Source of the DNA: Escherichia coli
GTDB lineage: Bacteria > Pseudomonadota > Gammaproteobacteria > Enterobacterales > Enterobacteriaceae
Length of the DNA: 64,000 nt
Assembly: GCF_045037415.1 (NCBI RefSeq)
Contig: NZ_CP173440.1
Reading direction: 5' to 3' (one strand)
Shown one piece after another: positions 30,001 through 45,000 of this stretch (the stretch's first letter is position 1; every line of letters begins with the position of its first letter). A program made the position numbers.

Positions 30001-33000
30001 CCCTGCTTACGAACCATCTCTTTAACGCACTCAAAACGTCGGGCTGTTGCCGGGTCGATGACAAATGTATTTAGATGCACATCTTCGCATACGCCAGACG
30101 TCTCATTTAGTTTCATGTTCACTCTCCAGATCAGGGATGAAGTCAAAGTTGTACGCAATCGCTTTTTCAGGTGATTCACCCGCGATGAGTTTTAACCAGG
30201 AGTAAGAGTCTTGCTGGTTAAGAAAAATAACGAGATACCCTTCATCTGCACTGTTTCGCTGTTTAATGAATTCAATCTCATTATCCATTACGAAACCAAA
30301 TGGCCCATGTATAACACGCGACTGCTCTGGAAGCATTGAGCTGAACATTGATACCACGACTTCCCTCAGCTCCAAATTTTGGTGCGCAATAAAAGCCACT
30401 CTTTTACCTTCCTTAACGGAAGCTACAATTCGTTTAACACTCGACTTCACGTTATAGCGATACACAATCAACCGGAGCCGGGTCATGCAGAGGAAAATAA
30501 TACATACGCAACTGACAAGAGCCCCATAAGCTGAGCCTTCAATGAACCAGTTAAGGAATCCCAAAACAACCAGTCCCAAAAAAGTGAATATACTCAACAG
30601 GAAAATATAAAAGTTAATTTTACGGTCTTTTGGATACCAGGTTGATGCAACGGCTATGATAGCCATTACGCCGACTAATGCATACATTGAAAGATCAAAC
30701 GGGTTACTCATCGATAGTCTCGCAATCGTGCCCAGGGCAGCCCTTGACAGGTGAAAATTCAGGGCATTCTTGAGTAGTTATAAGTCGCTCACCGGCGTTA
30801 AAACGTATTTGTAAGTCACTACGTAAAGCTTCTGCATTCTCCCCCCCCAAAAGGTAGAGCAGAAACTCATCATCAGCCAAAAGTAACTTTTCCAGGTCAT
30901 AGCACTCGTGTTTGTAGTCCATCATTCCTCCTTGAGACTATTAAATCACAGAGGAAAGACAAATTTTCTGTACTAAAGGGCTAAATCTGGAAGATCAAGT
31001 AAATTTTTTGGCAAAAAAAAAGCGCATAAAATATGCGCTCTTTTTTTAATAGACAACAATGGGTAATTAGTTCATACGGAGCATATGGTTCTCAACTCTT
31101 GCTATGAAGTTACTCATTGAGGGAAGGTTTAACTCGTCTCCTATGCGTTTACAGTCAAAAAGTGACTTTGCAGGGGAAAAGTTAAAGCCTTTATTATTAA
31201 CAAACTCTAAAATCTCTTTCAGATAGGAGTTTTTACTTCCGGCACTGAAGGAGTTGAGTAAAGGCCCACGATCTAAAAGTTCACCTGCTGCTTTTTTGGT
31301 CAACTTAATACCTTGTTTACTTATCATCTTACAATGATAGTACTCAAAGCTTTCACTACCTTCCCAGTCTAGAACCTGGAGGAGTGAAACTCAGAAAGCA
31401 AAAGCAACATTGTGCCATGATCACGAACAACATATAAAAATTCAAAATTACCATTTATCAACGCTTGCTTAACTAAGCGCAAATCTATCTCTATGTCGTA
31501 GTCATACCAGGGGCTATTAACGAGAGAAGCGGAATGCTTCAGAATGAAGTGTTCCTTAACCCAGTTAAAAACCGATTCGATATCATAATCATAATAAACG
31601 TTCATAATTAGCTCTCCTAAAGTAAAAAAGGGAGAGCCCCACAGGGAGCACTCTCCCTGTATGGGTTATGAAATTATTTAATCAAGTCAAAAAATCTTTC
31701 TTCCAGTTTGCCTGGGAAAGCTTCATGACCCTTGAGCATTAATACATCATTCCAATCGACACCTTTCGCACCATCAGGTATATCCAGTTCAGGCAAATGA
31801 ATCTCAACCCGGACTGTTGCTTCAGGATAGCGTTCAGCAAGTAAGGGCTCCATACGGCTCTTGAGAACACGTGCAGCAGACTCACCAGCTGAATTACCGG
31901 TGTTTGGATTTACCCGATCTTTATCTGCCCAAATCGACAATTCAATAAATTGGCAATCAGAAGGTGGCATTAAATACTCAGGTATTTCCAGCATTTCCAT
32001 AAATGTTGAACTTGAAGATGCCCAGCAAGGAATTGAAGTCGCCTCAGTTACTGATAGCGCATTCTCAATACCTTCACTAACCCCCAAAAACCATGATTTA
32101 GTTTCATCACAGTAAGTTGGTTTAAATAACTGCATCGAACCACCATTCATCTGGTAGACCGGTTTCATCATTAACTTTGGGTTTTCAACATCAGCTTTTT
32201 TAAGTCCATCATCAGTAAGATGAGTTTTATGGATAGTGCAATTGCGACCGAATTTATCGTTAAAAATAGCAACCATCGTTGGATGAAAACTGGCTGGCTT
32301 ATTAGAACCGGGCCAGTATCTCATCTTAGCATTAAACCCCAGACTAGCTGGAATTTTTGTGAGCATCCGTTTTATACCGCGCCCTGATAGATATCGAGCA
32401 ACCAATGAATCGGGTGTCACAAATTTTGTGTATTTATACACGGCTTCTAACTTATTTATACGACTAAGTCTCTCTTCCTCACCAATATCTGAAAAAGATT
32501 GAGCTTTTTTGTCATAAAGAACAATATTAACACGGTCGGCTTCAGTTAACTTTCTATCCTTGGAAACACCAAGCATTTCAAGAATGTTTTTTGCAGCCTG
32601 CGTTTTACTAATGCTTTTTAGTTCAGCAATTAAATCAATGCCATCAATAAAAGTATTATGGGGATAATCCTCATGAATAGCATGAACACTTTCTAGCGTC
32701 CTATCTTTAAATCTGAATTTCGTTTTGCCACTACCAGTAAACGGGCATTTGACAGAACGTGGAGCTTTTTCTAAAGCCTCCTGAAACTCAGGATAGTACG
32801 TTAATACATTACGCCATCCACCCAGCTGCTGCACATGAGATTTGACAAGGTCAAAAGTTTCTTGAGCGTACTGCATAGGGGTTTTAGCCGGTGAATTATA
32901 ATTTGTAGAATGACTCATAATACTCTCCTAGCTGACATTGTGGGTTTCACAATGCCTACTGCAATGCAGATAACATTGAGAAACCCACAACGCAGAATGA

Positions 33001-42000: not shown

Positions 42001-45000
42001 CCCTCCTTCATGGTGAAGGATTTGCCACTCCCTGGACAGGCAATGACCATCGTGTTTTTATCCATATTTTGTATAACACGCTCTTGTTCTTCTGTACTCG
42101 ATGACATCTTAGCTCCTTCCTGTTCCGGCATAAATCATGTCACATTCAGGAAAGAATTTTCTGAAATAGAGGCTGTTTTTCGTTTTTTATTCAGTATTTT
42201 GTATCATTGACTGCTCCCCGCCCAGAATGTACTGCACCTTTACTCAGTTGGAGTCCAACTTTTGGGATGCAGTTCAAAACAGGGCGAGGATTCCAACCCG
42301 CACGGGACGAGATTTCTAGGGAGCCTAACTGATAAAAGCACCTTTAAAAGCACTCTTTAGTGTGCTATAATTTAGGCTCTAAATAGGAGGTTTTTTTATG
42401 GCATTTCAGGTACTAACCACTACTGCAGCAAGCATCACAGAGCTTAAACGTGATCCTATGGGCACCTTCAATGCAGGAGAAGGTGCCCCGGTAGCCATAC
42501 TGAATCGCAACGAACCCGCTTTTTACTGTGTACCGCCTGCTCTGTATGCTCAACTGATGGAGCTTCTTGAAGATCAGGAGCTGGGTCATATTGCTGATGA
42601 GCGAATTGGTGAGGCGGTAATCGAGGTCAGTCTAGATGACCTATAAGCTGGCCTTTAATGAATCAGCTCTGAAAGAATGGAAAAAATTGGGCCATACCAT
42701 TCGGGAACAATTCAAAAAGAAGCTCGCTGAGCGCCTGTTGAACCCACGGGTGCCCGCATCGCAACTCCATGGACGCAAAGACCAGTACAAAATAAAGCTC
42801 CGTGGCGCAGGCTACCGACTGGTTTACAGTGTCAACGATGATGTTGTAACGGTCACCGTAATTGGCGTCGGTAAACGTGAGAATGATGATATTTACAATT
42901 TGACCAAACACAGAAATTAAGAGCGTATTCGTTCAGGTCTTTAGTTATTGGTAATCAGGGCGTTCAAATCGACTTCAACCCCAGCAGTTAATGCTTTGAT
43001 ACCTTCCCAGAGTACGACCGGCACAGGTGCTATGTTCTGCGGGTTTTAATAGGCGGAATACCGACTTCTATTTATTTCCTGCACCTGTTGATTCCGTGCT
43101 GTATATATGGTTATTTATACAGGTTATCTCAATACACACTGAATGCAAAATGCTAATCCAGAAAGCGTATAAATACAGACTCAACCCAACAGATGCACAG
43201 GCGCAACGACTGCGTCAGATGTGCGGCTGCGCCCGTTTTGTCTGGAATTACGCCCTGGCAGAGACCCAGCGCATTCTTGAGACCGGACAAAAACTCCCTT
43301 CCGCCTTTGAGCTGAATAAAATGCTGACAGGATGGAAGAAATTACCTGACCTGGCGTTTTTATCTGATGCCTACACCGACAACCTTCAGCAGAAACTGAA
43401 AGACCTGCATGGGGCCTGGAAACGGTGCTTTGATAAAAAGCTGGCAGCGAAAGCGCCCGTGTTCAAACGTAAAAGCCACGGCAATGACTCTGTTCGTTTC
43501 GTCAATTTTGACAAATACTGCCAGCTTGAGTACAGACGCGTTAAGTTACCCTCGGGGCTGGGCTGGGTGACATTCCGGCAGTCCCGCGCCGTTGTGGGGA
43601 AAATCAAAAACGCAACGGTCAGCCAGCACGCTGGCGGCTGGTATATCTCATTTCAGGTAGAAATGGTTGTCGAACAGCCCGCGCACCCGTCTACGTCTGC
43701 TGTCGGTCTGGATACCGGTGTCAGCAAGCTGGCAACGCTGTCAGACGGCACGGTGTTTGAACCTGTCAACAGCTTTAAGCAGAACCAGAGCAGGCTGGCA
43801 AGGTTACAGCGCCAGCTTGCCCGTAAAGTGAAATTCAGCGCGAACTGGAAGAAGCAGAAAGCAAGAATTTCCCGCTTACATTCGCATATCGCCAACATCC
43901 GCCGCGATTACCTTCACAAAGTCACAACAACAGTCAGCAAAAACCACGCGATGATCGTTATTGAGGACTTGAAGGTTTCCAACATGTCAAAATCGGCAGC
44001 GGGTACGGTAGATGAGCCGGGGCGCAACGTTGCGTCAAAATCAGGTCTTAACCGGGCGATACTGGATCAGGGCTGGTACGAAATGCGCCGCCAGCTCGAA
44101 TATAAGCAACGATGGCGCGGCGGTGAGGTGCTGGCAGTAAATCCGGCATATACCAGCCAGAAATGCGCCTGTTGTGGTCATACAGCGAAGGAAAATCGAC
44201 AATCGCAGGCAAAATTTGTTTGCACGGTATGTGGGTACGAAGCGAACGCTGATGCAAACGGTGCGCGTAATATTTTAGCGGCAGGACATGCCGTGCTTGC
44301 CTGTGGAGGGAAGGTGCAGTCAGACCACCCAACGAAGCAGGAACCTGACACTGAGCGATCAGCGGTCACCCACTAATGGGAATCCCCTATCTGAATCACG
44401 AAGTGTAAAGGCGGGGGAGGATGTCAATACCACCAGAGATGTAAACTGGAACAATTTAATTCTAAATTATCCATTTGGAGTGGTCGCTTTCTGATTATTA
44501 GTTATCGGTAAGCGGCGCGTCTAAATCGACTTCAACCCCAGCAGTTAATGCTTTGATACCTTCCCAGAACACGACCGGCACAGGTGCTATCGGTTTTCCA
44601 AAGGGTGCTCCCTCCGATGAAGGAGGGAGGGGAATTTGGACGGGGTTGAAAACCCGTGATTTTAGCCCCGCTGGTTTTGAATATACTTCTTCACAACTTC
44701 CAGTGGGGCGCCACCGCACGAGCCAGCAAAGTAACTGCGCGACCAAAGTACAGGTTTGCTATAGGCGGCTCGTAGATCGATATATTCATTCCTTAGCCGC
44801 CTGCTGGTGACTGCTTTGAGTGAGTTGACCAGCTTAGATAGTTGCACGGTAGGCGGGTATTCAATCAGCATATGAAGGTGATCAGCATCACCGTCACACT
44901 CCTTTAATTCTGCGCCAAAATCACCACACACCTCAGATACATACTGACGGGCGCTGTTGATATGTAATTCACCAAAAACTTTGCGGCGATACTTGGTCAC

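What the first reader, a model, noticed from the sequence alone, without database searches (positions are those of the whole stretch)
31674..42131. CobS-like AAA+ / unknown / CobT-like vWA trio embedded in a primase-SSB-helicase cluster
Co-oriented genes encode a UvrD-family helicase, a KP-rich protein, a possible SSB, a 278-aa unknown, a CobS/MoxR-like AAA+ ATPase (36527-37579), a 358-aa unknown (35359-36435), a CobT-like vWA protein with acidic repeats (33331-35295) and a Toprim primase-like protein. AAA+ MoxR plus vWA pairs with a third partner have been proposed as NTP-dependent conflict or signalling systems, and CobST-like pairs occur in phage and plasmid replication modules. Whether this is a replication/establishment module or a defence or anti-defence system cannot be decided from sequence.
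Basis: partly seen in the sequence, partly recalled or inferred. Interest (0 to 1): 0.65.

Follow-up and report, generated by a model that had tools for sequence, protein, structure and literature searches.

The report
CobS/CobT-like plasmid entry-protection module
This is a real, deeply conserved backbone gene cluster of IncHI-type and related conjugative plasmids, built around an ATP-driven motor, a partner protein with a protease-like motif and an unknown third protein; in IncC plasmids the related motor gene, deleted together with its neighbour, has been shown to protect entering DNA from host restriction enzymes, so the cluster is probably an entry or anti-defence module and not a defence system or a vitamin B12 enzyme.

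Summary
All eight ORFs exist as described, on the minus strand. The window is a Klebsiella IncHI1B/IncFIB (MOBH, MPF_F) plasmid, and the segment is found in 575 plasmids.

**Domain calls**
- 36527-37579 is an AAA_5 ATPase. Its nearest solved relatives are midasin, CbbQ, NorQ and CobS.
- 35359-36435 is DUF3150.
- 33331-35295 is CobT-like, with an acidic DSDGSD linker and a vWA domain carrying an intact MIDAS site.
- Its N-terminal domain has a conserved HExxH...E motif and a gluzincin-like predicted fold. One bona fide CobT lacks this motif.

**Conservation.** AAA-DUF3150-vWA is conserved as a unit after traN in:
- IncHI1B, IncHI2 and Shewanella/Photobacterium plasmids, together with a UvrD helicase (TrhI), an SSB or SSB-like protein and a Toprim primase;
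- IncC- and SXT/R391-like elements, with ssb-bet-exo inserted.

Phage-plasmids carry only the AAA/vWA pair.

**Function.** Published work shows that the IncC genes vcrx089 (the AAA relative) and vcrx090 together confer type I anti-restriction in the recipient cell. The gene after exo, DUF3150 in the IncC locus read here, is co-transcribed with them. The best reading is therefore an establishment and host-defence-evasion module. The mechanism and the roles of DUF3150 and the vWA protein are untested. No Vcrx090 homologue is detectable in the window.

The parts
40308..42131 (-). UvrD/Rep-family SF1 helicase; counterpart of IncHI2 TrhI
   Evidence: TIGR01074 1e-50 and PHROG_1967 7.5e-79. 630 bits to the IncHI2 gene annotated 'IncHI-type conjugal transfer helicase TrhI'. 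A UvrD helicase sits at this position in L003, L004, L012, L013, L031 and L032.
38988..40016 (-). K/P/A/T-rich protein of unknown function. RefSeq starts it at 39974. Conserved in IncHI2 and K. grimontii.
   Evidence: ORF; RefSeq CDS. Homologues in L002 (2e-20) and L010 (3e-153). No hit in NCBIfam, PHROGs or PADLOC; not scanned against Pfam.
38490..38843 (-). 117-aa protein, possibly an OB-fold SSB-like protein; conserved C-terminal PKPxxGFGxSxF
   Evidence: No significant Pfam hit. hhalign against plasmid SSBs aligns 77 columns, pairwise E 0.0066, probability only 5.7%. A true SSB occupies the equivalent position in L003, L004, L012 and L032. Alignment.
37607..38443 (-). 278-aa protein of unknown function, immediately upstream of the AAA gene; restricted to IncHI-type plasmids
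   Evidence: No Pfam, NCBIfam, PHROG or PADLOC hit. Homologues only in L002 and L010. No detectable homology to the IncC Vcrx090 family (hhalign probability 0.8%).
36527..37579 (-). CobS/midasin-type AAA+ ATPase (AAA_5). Walker A GESGSGKT at 37235-37258; Walker B LLDEID.
   Evidence: Pfam AAA_5 2.4e-28. PDB: midasin 3e-13, CbbQ, NorQ, CobS 8e-5. Catalytic motifs are invariant in alignment A4. 25% identity, E 2e-19, to the IncC AAA in the vcrx089 position.
35359..36435 (-). DUF3150 protein: small beta-sheet plus long helical bundle, then a disordered tail that ends in an aromatic residue (..TPFNF)
33331..35295 (-). CobT-like protein. N-terminal HExxH domain 34546-35295 (HEGGH at 35074-35088); acidic DSDGSD linker from the 18-nt array 34251-34516; C-terminal vWA 33331-33843 with MIDAS DISVS at 33805-33819.
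33029..33259 (-). 76-aa conserved small ORF between the vWA and Toprim genes
   Evidence: RefSeq CDS WP_004181768.1. An ORF of similar size lies at the same position in IncHI2. Translation.
31674..32918 (-). Toprim-domain primase-like protein
   Evidence: PHROG_510 DNA primase 6e-30. RefSeq 'toprim domain-containing protein'. Homologues carry Pfam DUF7146+Toprim_3. EGIE (aa 282) and DKD (aa 332) motifs. Follows the vWA gene in L002, L003, L010, L012 and L013.

Best explanation
The region is a core backbone operon of MOBH/MPF_F conjugative elements (IncHI, IncC/IncA, SXT/R391-like and marine relatives). It most likely serves establishment of the transferred DNA in a new host, that is, DNA processing plus evasion of host defence.

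Within it, the trio is a chelatase/midasin-style machine with three parts:
- a CobS-like AAA+ ring (the motor);
- a CobT-like subunit that joins a zincin-like HExxH domain, an acidic linker and a vWA/MIDAS domain (the adaptor, possibly catalytic);
- DUF3150, a helical protein with an acidic tail and an aromatic C-terminus (client or targeting subunit, in the place CobN holds in cobaltochelatase).

The most likely activity is ATP-driven remodelling or proteolysis of a protein bound to the entering DNA. By analogy with IncC vcrx089-090, this would be neutralisation of type I restriction complexes in the recipient. The neighbouring helicase, SSB-like protein and primase would process and prime the incoming single strand.

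Shown: the domain identities, the conservation as a unit, and the phenotype of the IncC relative. Inferred: that the IncHI trio has the same role, that DUF3150 and the vWA protein take part in it, and any proteolysis.
For: 1. Backbone location and synteny. The order traN, s063-like gene, helicase, SSB or SSB-like, AAA, DUF3150, vWA, Toprim is found in IncHI1B (the window), IncHI2, K. grimontii, and Shewanella and Photobacterium plasmids. The order traN, s063, AAA, Vcrx090-like, ssb, bet, exo, DUF3150, vWA is found in IncC- and SXT/R391-like elements. Distant DUF3150 representatives again sit between AAA_5 and CobT/VWA genes.
2. All three window proteins are homologous to their IncC counterparts: E 2e-19, 1e-6 and 3e-21.
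3. Experiments in relatives. Deleting vcrx089-090 lowers IncC transfer 25-fold into a V. cholerae strain with type I R-M. The defect is complemented from the recipient but not from the donor, and it disappears in an hsdR mutant (PMC7498323). The same deletion raises EcoKI/EcoBI restriction 400-900-fold (PMC11602122). The pair is listed in AntiDefenseFinder.
4. cDNA primed in vcrx094 reaches vcrx087, so that gene is co-transcribed. In the IncC locus read here the gene after exo is DUF3150.
5. The corresponding SXT operon is activated by the transfer activator SetCD (PMC4344509).
6. The catalytic motifs are intact: Walker A/B and conserved arginines in the AAA, MIDAS DxSxS..T..D in the vWA, and HExxH...E in the N-domain. 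The N-domain fold resembles M48/M56 zinc peptidases.
7. No defence-system model matches DUF3150 or the vWA protein.
Against: - The anti-restriction phenotype was mapped to vcrx089 plus vcrx090. The window has no detectable Vcrx090 homologue, and its AAA is only 25% identical to the IncC one.
- No experiment has tested DUF3150 or the vWA protein.
- In SXT, deletions of s067, s068 and s070 in this region cost at most 10-fold in laboratory transfer (PMC2791158). I did not verify which of those genes correspond to the trio.
- In phage-plasmids and phages the AAA/vWA pair lies beside DNA polymerase, ligase, SSB and exonuclease genes and no DUF3150 was detected. That fits a replication role equally well.
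- The window's module is not shown to lie in the leading region.
Confidence: 0.5

Rival explanations
1. Replication or priming accessory. The AAA+/vWA/DUF3150 complex would load or remodel replication proteins (helicase, primase, SSB, initiator) on the plasmid, for vegetative or conjugative replication, and would have nothing to do with host defences.
For: The trio is embedded between a UvrD helicase, an SSB-like protein and a Toprim primase. It lies about 3-10 kb from a Tus-like terminus-binding gene and the RepB initiator. In SSU5-type phage-plasmids the CobT/CobS-like pair lies directly next to DNA polymerase, ligase, SSB and exonuclease genes. AAA+ proteins commonly load or remodel replication factors (general knowledge).
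Against: The only experimental phenotype in the family is anti-restriction in the recipient. In the IncC TnSeq the authors report insertion depletion for replication and maintenance genes such as repA and parAB and for transfer genes, and do not name this operon among them. SXT, which replicates with the chromosome, also keeps genes in this region, and deleting them costs at most 10-fold in transfer.
Confidence: 0.25
2. The trio is a plasmid-borne defence system against phages or competing plasmids: a MoxR-vWA 'ternary' NTP-dependent conflict system, with the HExxH domain as effector.
For: The architecture is an AAA+ ATPase, a vWA protein and a third partner, plus a possible peptidase effector. 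The helicase resembles GajB-type UvrD helicases in PADLOC.
Against: No PADLOC model matches DUF3150 or the vWA protein, and the AAA matches only through its P-loop region (E 2e-6 or weaker). The GajB hits are generic UvrD similarity. The genes are conserved backbone at a fixed position after traN in many element families, whereas SXT's variable hotspots flank this region. The IncC relative protects the plasmid from the host.
Confidence: 0.05
3. A genuine cobaltochelatase (CobS/CobT) for cobalamin synthesis, or another metal-insertion chaperone carried as a metabolic cargo gene.
For: Sequence relationship to CobS and CobT. Databases label phage homologues 'porphyrin biosynthesis'.
Against: Scores are far below the equivalog cut-offs: CobS 32 against 558 bits, and the phage homologue's CobT score 179 against 759. 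No CobN-like gene is present, and a 358-aa DUF3150 sits in its place. The context is DNA metabolism and conjugation. The N-domain keeps an HExxH that the one bona fide CobT examined lacks.
Confidence: 0.02

Closest known systems
IncC/SXT-R391 'hde' (host defence evasion) operon: vcrx089-vcrx090 anti-restriction plus ssb-bet-exo (Roy et al. 2020, PMC7498323; Dimitriu et al. 2024, PMC11602122)
   Same: Homologous AAA_5 ATPase (E 2e-19), DUF3150 (1e-6) and CobT-like vWA (3e-21) genes. Same backbone position after traN and the s063-like gene, same orientation, and association with an SSB.
   Different: The window has no Vcrx090 homologue and no Bet/Exo. It has instead a UvrD helicase, a KP-rich protein, a 117-aa OB-like protein, a 278-aa unknown and a Toprim primase, and the three trio genes are contiguous. 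The published phenotype concerns vcrx089-090 only. DUF3150 and the vWA protein are not discussed in that work.
Aerobic cobaltochelatase CobNST (and Mg-chelatase BchIDH)
   Same: An AAA_5/CobS-type ATPase paired with a CobT-type subunit whose vWA/MIDAS domain follows an acidic linker. The profile hits solved CobT at 5e-36, and CobS is among the nearest solved AAA sequences.
   Different: No CobN. Scores lie far below the equivalog cut-offs. The N-domain keeps HExxH where a bona fide CobT has DAAAL. The genomic context is DNA processing.
MoxR/CbbQ/NorQ-type AAA+ with vWA partners (CbbQ-CbbO, NorQ-NorD, RavA-ViaA); midasin/Rea1
   Same: A Helix-2-insert AAA+ ring works with a MIDAS-bearing vWA protein to remodel a client protein. 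Midasin, CbbQ and NorQ are the top solved AAA matches, and NorD appears among the vWA matches. Midasin also combines AAA_5 modules, an acidic D/E-rich region and a MIDAS domain (general knowledge).
   Different: The client here is unknown. There is an extra zincin-like domain and a dedicated DUF3150 partner. The system is carried by mobile elements.
CobS/CobT-like 'porphyrin biosynthesis' gene pairs of phages and SSU5/pMT1-type phage-plasmids
   Same: Homologous pair with the same HExxH, acidic linker and MIDAS features.
   Different: The gene order is reversed in the SSU5/pMT1-type phage-plasmids (vWA before AAA). No DUF3150 is detected, either next to the pair or fused to it. The pair sits in a phage replication module. 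Separate uncultured-phage DUF3150 proteins do exist.
AAA+-coupled proteolysis in restriction alleviation (ClpXP degradation of HsdR) and FtsH-type AAA+/zincin proteases
   Same: Functional analogy only: an ATPase plus a (predicted) zinc peptidase that could remove a DNA-bound restriction subunit. This rests on established knowledge of ClpXP restriction alleviation and was not tested here.
   Different: No sequence relationship was shown. The peptidase activity is only predicted.

Membership tests
AAA+ ATPase, AAA_5 (dynein/midasin/CobS/MoxR-related) group | Significant match to the AAA_5 profile, with Walker A, Walker B, sensor and arginine residues intact | tested here: met
   Pfam AAA_5 2.4e-28. 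GESGSGKT and LLDEID verified. G108-T115, E175, D177, N219, R242 and R295 are invariant in A4.
Cobaltochelatase CobS (TIGR01650 equivalog) | Score above the curated equivalog cut-off | tested here: not met
   32.4 bits against a cut-off of 558.55.
Cobaltochelatase CobT (TIGR01651 / Pfam CobT + CobT_C) | Full-length similarity to CobT: N-terminal CobT domain, acidic linker and C-terminal vWA | tested here: inconclusive
   The window protein alone gives only Pfam VWA 5e-5. The family profile hits PDB CobT at 5e-36 over the C-terminal 240 aa. Homologues match PF06213 and PF11775, and the phage homologue aligns to TIGR01651 over its full length but scores 179 bits against a cut-off of 759. It is homologous, but not an equivalog.
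Cobaltochelatase CobNST complex | A CobN (large substrate-binding) subunit and a cobalamin-pathway context | tested here: not met
   No CobN-like ORF in the cluster. The neighbours are helicase, primase and tra genes.
vWA domain with a functional MIDAS | DxSxS motif plus downstream T and D metal ligands | tested here: met
   D493-S495-S497, TPT and TDG are conserved in 17/17 homologues. DISVS verified.
Zincin (gluzincin, M48/M56-like) metallopeptidase | HExxH on an active-site helix preceded by a beta-sheet, a downstream acidic third ligand, and fold similarity to known zincins | tested here: inconclusive
DUF3150 (PF11348) | Significant match to the Pfam profile | tested here: met
   9.9e-15 over residues 32-262. 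91 representatives at E of 1e-3 or better.
vcrx089_090 anti-restriction system (IncC hde operon) | An AAA_5(+CbbQ_C) Vcrx089 homologue together with a Vcrx090 homologue | tested here: not met
   The AAA homologue is present (E 2e-19), although Pfam finds no CbbQ_C domain in it. No Vcrx090 homologue was found in the window by phmmer or by profile-profile comparison with the adjacent 278-aa protein (probability 0.8%).
vcrx089_090 anti-restriction system (IncC hde operon) | Anti-restriction phenotype in the recipient | not testable with these tools
   Requires mating assays. Shown only for IncC plasmids.
Known anti-phage defence systems (PADLOC-DB v2) | Match of the component proteins to a defence-system model | tested here: not met
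   No hit for DUF3150, the vWA protein, Toprim or the unknowns. The AAA gives only P-loop-level hits (DolB 2e-6). The helicase gives generic GajB/UvrD hits.
SSB (PF00436) for the 117-aa protein | Significant match to an SSB/OB profile | tested here: inconclusive
   Pfam gives only tRNA_anti-codon OB at E 0.44. hhalign against plasmid SSBs gives probability 5.7%. The protein is positionally equivalent to true SSBs.
Toprim primase-like protein | Toprim acidic motifs (E ... DxD) and similarity to primase families | tested here: met
   PHROG_510 DNA primase 6e-30. EGIE and DKD motifs. Homologues carry DUF7146+Toprim_3. Primase activity itself was not tested.

The most novel reading that the evidence does not exclude
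The 'CobT-like' proteins of plasmids, ICEs and phages would be active zinc metallopeptidases tethered by an acidic linker to a MIDAS domain and driven by a CobS-like AAA+ ring. DUF3150, through its conserved aromatic C-terminal tail, would act as the targeting subunit. The complex would be a previously unrecognised ATP-dependent protease or remodeller that removes host type I restriction (or other DNA-bound defence) proteins from entering DNA. On this reading the cobaltochelatase subunit CobT would be an inactivated relative of such a protease.
Probability: 0.2. Interest if true: 0.8.

Novelty: new variant of a known kind. Interest (0 to 1): 0.5.

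Why it matters
This gene set sits on plasmid families that spread carbapenemase and hypervirulence genes: IncHI1B/pNDM-MAR-like, IncHI2 and IncC. If the trio helps plasmids survive restriction on entry, it is a determinant of host range and a possible target for blocking spread.

It also links three things that had not been connected:
- the experimentally defined vcrx089-090 anti-restriction genes;
- the uncharacterised DUF3150 family;
- the puzzling 'cobalamin/porphyrin biosynthesis' genes annotated in phages and phage-plasmids.

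The conserved HExxH motif and the aromatic C-terminal tail of DUF3150 give direct, mutable handles for testing a mechanism.

Tried and rejected
- **DUF3150 fused into phage proteins.** I tested whether it is hidden in the long Roseobacter-phage 'CobS' or in SSU5 'CobT'. hhalign was negative.
- **The 278-aa protein as a diverged Vcrx090.** hhalign was negative.
- **The N-terminal HExxH domain against PDB sequences.** There was no sequence-level hit, not even to the solved CobT N-terminus. The link to the CobT family comes only through Pfam/TIGR profiles on homologues.
- **Genome-collection scans seeded with DUF3150 alignments.** These failed because the family has no conserved 7-10-residue stretch. 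An AAA alignment was used instead and gave 18 loci.
- **Promoter and terminator scan.** It was uninformative: promoter-like sites were fewer than in shuffles, and only weak hairpins lay between genes.
- **Literature.** 'DUF3150' occurs in a single unrelated preprint. One search was wasted on an unspecific term. The Lawley 2003 R27 Tra2 paper and the pVCR94 record could not be retrieved.
- **Defence-system reading.** Rejected on the PADLOC result and the backbone position.
- **Cobaltochelatase reading.** Rejected on the cut-offs and the missing CobN.

Full report
**Where the window comes from.** The 10.5-kb segment is 100% identical to large Klebsiella pneumoniae plasmids typed IncFIB/IncHI1B (MOBH relaxase, MPF_F). 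It occurs in 575 PLSDB plasmids, 562 of which carry at least 80% of it. RefSeq annotates the genes as ATP-dependent helicase, hypothetical x3, AAA family ATPase, DUF3150 domain-containing protein, VWA domain-containing protein, hypothetical, and toprim domain-containing protein. Upstream in gene order lie the Tra2-type genes: traN at 48946-52131, then trhU, trbC and a signal peptidase. A divergent 282-aa gene follows at 48049-48897. Then come an IS200/IS605 tnpA with two tnpB genes and a Phd/RelE pair. These last elements are absent from the same position in IncHI2, where trhN, a hypothetical gene and trhI are adjacent. Downstream lie a run of hypothetical genes, a Tus-like terminus-binding gene, Hha, a tyrosine recombinase and RepB.

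**Check of the observation.** All eight ORFs are present as described.
- The helicase is SF1 UvrD/Rep-like. It is homologous to the IncHI2 gene that RefSeq names 'IncHI-type conjugal transfer helicase TrhI'.
- The ATPase is AAA_5 (2.4e-28). Its best solved relatives are midasin AAA modules, CbbQ, NorQ and CobS. It scores 32 bits on the CobS equivalog model against a cut-off of 558.
- The 358-aa 'unknown' is DUF3150.
- The vWA protein alone gives only a weak VWA hit. A six-sequence profile hits the solved cobaltochelatase CobT at 5e-36 over the region before the vWA domain plus the vWA domain itself.
- Homologues match Pfam CobT and CobT_C. A phage homologue aligns to TIGR01651 CobT over its full length, at 179 bits against a cut-off of 759.
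- The acidic DSDGSD linker is encoded by an 18-nt tandem array. The antisense ORFs over it are repeat artefacts.
- The Toprim protein matches a phage DNA primase family (6e-30) and keeps the EGIE and DKD motifs.
- The 117-aa 'possible SSB' has no significant hit. It aligns weakly to plasmid SSBs in the typical OB pattern and sits where true SSBs sit in related plasmids.
- The 278-aa and 342-aa proteins are conserved only in IncHI-type plasmids.

**Anatomy of the trio.** In the AAA protein the Walker A and B motifs, a sensor asparagine and two arginines are invariant across IncHI, IncC and marine-plasmid homologues. DUF3150 was modelled with 48 homologues and gave pLDDT 83.5. It forms a small beta-sheet packed on a long helical bundle, followed by a disordered tail. 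No solved structure gives a specific match, but the model resembles uncultured-phage proteins, one of them named DUF3150. The tail is acidic, and in 44 of 48 homologues it ends in F or W, typically ..[DE]x[FW]GxG[FW]-COOH. The window protein ends ..TPFNF. This looks like a docking peptide.

**Conservation as a unit.** I collected loci from PLSDB, from a scan of GTDB genomes seeded with the AAA alignment, and from contigs that encode distant DUF3150 representatives. I then mapped the families on them with HMMs. Three layouts emerge.
- **Type A.** The order is traN, s063-like gene (reverse strand), UvrD helicase, SSB or KP-rich + 117-aa proteins, optional unknown, AAA, DUF3150, vWA, Toprim. This layout is found in the window, IncHI2, K. 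grimontii, two Shewanella plasmids, Photobacterium and L004. L031 and L032 are permuted or truncated variants of it.
- **Type B.** The order is traN, s063 (reverse strand), AAA, a 300-aa protein, ssb, bet, exo, DUF3150, vWA. This layout is found in IncC and in related elements in Vibrio, Edwardsiella, Shewanella, Paraglaciecola, Providencia and a marine MAG.
- **Type C.** Only the AAA/vWA pair is present, next to DNA polymerase, ligase, SSB and exonuclease genes where the annotation was read. This layout is found in SSU5, Y. pestis pMT1-like, Buttiauxella and Photobacterium elements, and in a Roseobacter phage.

Every DUF3150 locus with enough flank has an AAA_5 gene upstream and a CobT/VWA gene immediately downstream. 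The exceptions are a 3-kb contig where Toprim follows DUF3150 and a Ruminobacter MAG with the AAA gene alone.

**What is known experimentally.** In IncC pVCR94 the genes in the type B order are vcrx089 (AAA_5 + CbbQ_C), vcrx090 (no Pfam domain), ssb, bet and exo. Together they form the 'host defence evasion' operon.
- Deleting vcrx089-090 reduces transfer 25-fold into V. cholerae O395.
- The defect is rescued by expressing both genes in the recipient, not in the donor, and it disappears in an hsdR mutant.
- ssb, bet and exo repair CRISPR-Cas breaks (PMC7498323).
- In pKAZ3 the same deletion raises EcoKI and EcoBI restriction 400-900-fold (PMC11602122).
- AntiDefenseFinder lists the pair.
- cDNA primed at the 3' end of vcrx094 extends back to vcrx087. 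In the IncC locus I read, the gene after exo is DUF3150, followed by the vWA gene, so these are co-transcribed with the anti-defence genes.
- The TnSeq in that paper compared Cas+ with Cas- recipients that both had the type I R-M system. It therefore could not reveal whether vcrx094 and vcrx095 are needed for anti-restriction. This last point is my inference from the design described.
- In SXT the corresponding operon is activated by SetCD. Deletions of bet, exo, s067, s068 and s070 cost at most 10-fold in laboratory transfer, while s063 costs about 100-fold (PMC2791158). I did not verify which s-numbers correspond to the trio.

**Relation of the window to IncC.** The window's AAA, DUF3150 and vWA proteins match their IncC counterparts at E 2e-19 (25% identity), 1e-6 (20%) and 3e-21 (22%, full length). 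No Vcrx090 homologue is detectable. The 278-aa protein next to the AAA gene shows no profile similarity to it. The window is therefore a variant of the same ancestral module and does not meet the two-gene definition of the vcrx089_090 system.

**Interpretation.** The best-supported reading (about 0.5) is an establishment and host-defence-evasion operon. In it a chelatase/midasin-style AAA+/vWA machine with a DUF3150 partner acts on a protein target associated with the entering DNA, most plausibly restriction complexes. The helicase, SSB-like protein and primase would process the incoming strand. The HExxH domain raises the possibility of ATP-coupled proteolysis, functionally reminiscent of ClpXP-mediated restriction alleviation. 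That comparison is an analogy from established knowledge and was not tested.
- The main rival (about 0.25) is a replication or priming accessory role. It is favoured by the replication-module context in phage-plasmids and by the neighbouring helicase, primase, Tus and Rep genes.
- A defence system (about 0.05) is poorly supported.
- A genuine cobaltochelatase (about 0.02) is poorly supported.
- The remaining probability covers other roles or none of these.

**Novelty and verdict.** The genes are annotated in hundreds of plasmids, and the IncC relative of the AAA gene, together with vcrx090, has a published function, so this is not a new kind of system. Three things appear not to have been described, within the limits of the literature I could search. 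First, vcrx089-type ATPases belong to a conserved AAA/DUF3150/CobT-like trio that spans IncHI, IncC- and SXT/R391-like elements and marine plasmids. Second, the CobT-like partner keeps a zincin motif that a real CobT lacks. Third, DUF3150 carries a conserved aromatic C-terminal tail. I rate the finding a new variant of a known kind, with moderate interest (0.5).

Noticed in passing
window 42398-42920 (+) and 43027-46351: A Phd/YefM-RelE/ParE toxin-antitoxin pair and an IS200/IS605 unit (two tnpB genes flanking tnpA at 44662-45087) lie between the traN/s063-like genes and the helicase. In IncHI2 the genes trhN, a hypothetical gene and trhI are directly adjacent, so these look like later insertions into the backbone.
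   Followed up: partly
window 38490-38843; L002 6059-6436; L003 4779-5342; L012 7512-8114: The 117-aa OB-like protein and its IncHI2 homologue share a conserved C-terminal PKPxxGFGxSxF. The true SSBs at the same position in Shewanella-type plasmids end in ..GNGF.. in place of the canonical acidic DDDIPF tip. DUF3150 proteins end in ..FGxGF/W. A shared 'GF' docking peptide for a common partner is possible.
   Followed up: partly
window 34169-34738 (+), 34218-34610 (+), 34228-34524 (+), 34248-34520 (-): Long ORFs on both strands over the 18-nt tandem array (34251-34516), opposite to or in another frame of the vWA gene. They are by-products of the repeat, not genes. The vWA protein is 654 aa here and 630 aa in the K. 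grimontii homologue (L010).
   Followed up: partly
window 27943-28902 (-): [quoted passage not shown] It is followed by Hha, a tyrosine recombinase and the RepB initiator. A ter gene is also listed for the pAQU1 plasmid.
   Followed up: no
window 48049-48897 (+): A 282-aa gene divergent from traN sits at the position of s063 of SXT/IncC, which is needed for about 100-fold of SXT transfer. The similarity is positional only: phmmer with the IncC s063 protein did not reach 1e-4 in the window and was marginal (9e-5) in the Shewanella plasmid.
   Followed up: partly
L007 11760-12290 (IncC ssb): The IncC SSB carries the canonical WDDDIPF tip followed by nine extra residues (MRLHHLAGG), so the tip is not at the C-terminus.
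   Followed up: no
L014 9734-10771 (Ruminobacter MAG): An AAA homologue (about 30% identity) has no detectable DUF3150 or CobT-like gene downstream. It is the one clear exception to the trio rule.
   Followed up: partly
L031 14074-15567 and L003 17398-18273: DNA methylase genes (a Dcm-type and an adenine methylase) lie a few kb downstream of the trio in two distant relatives. This is compatible with an anti-restriction neighbourhood.
   Followed up: no
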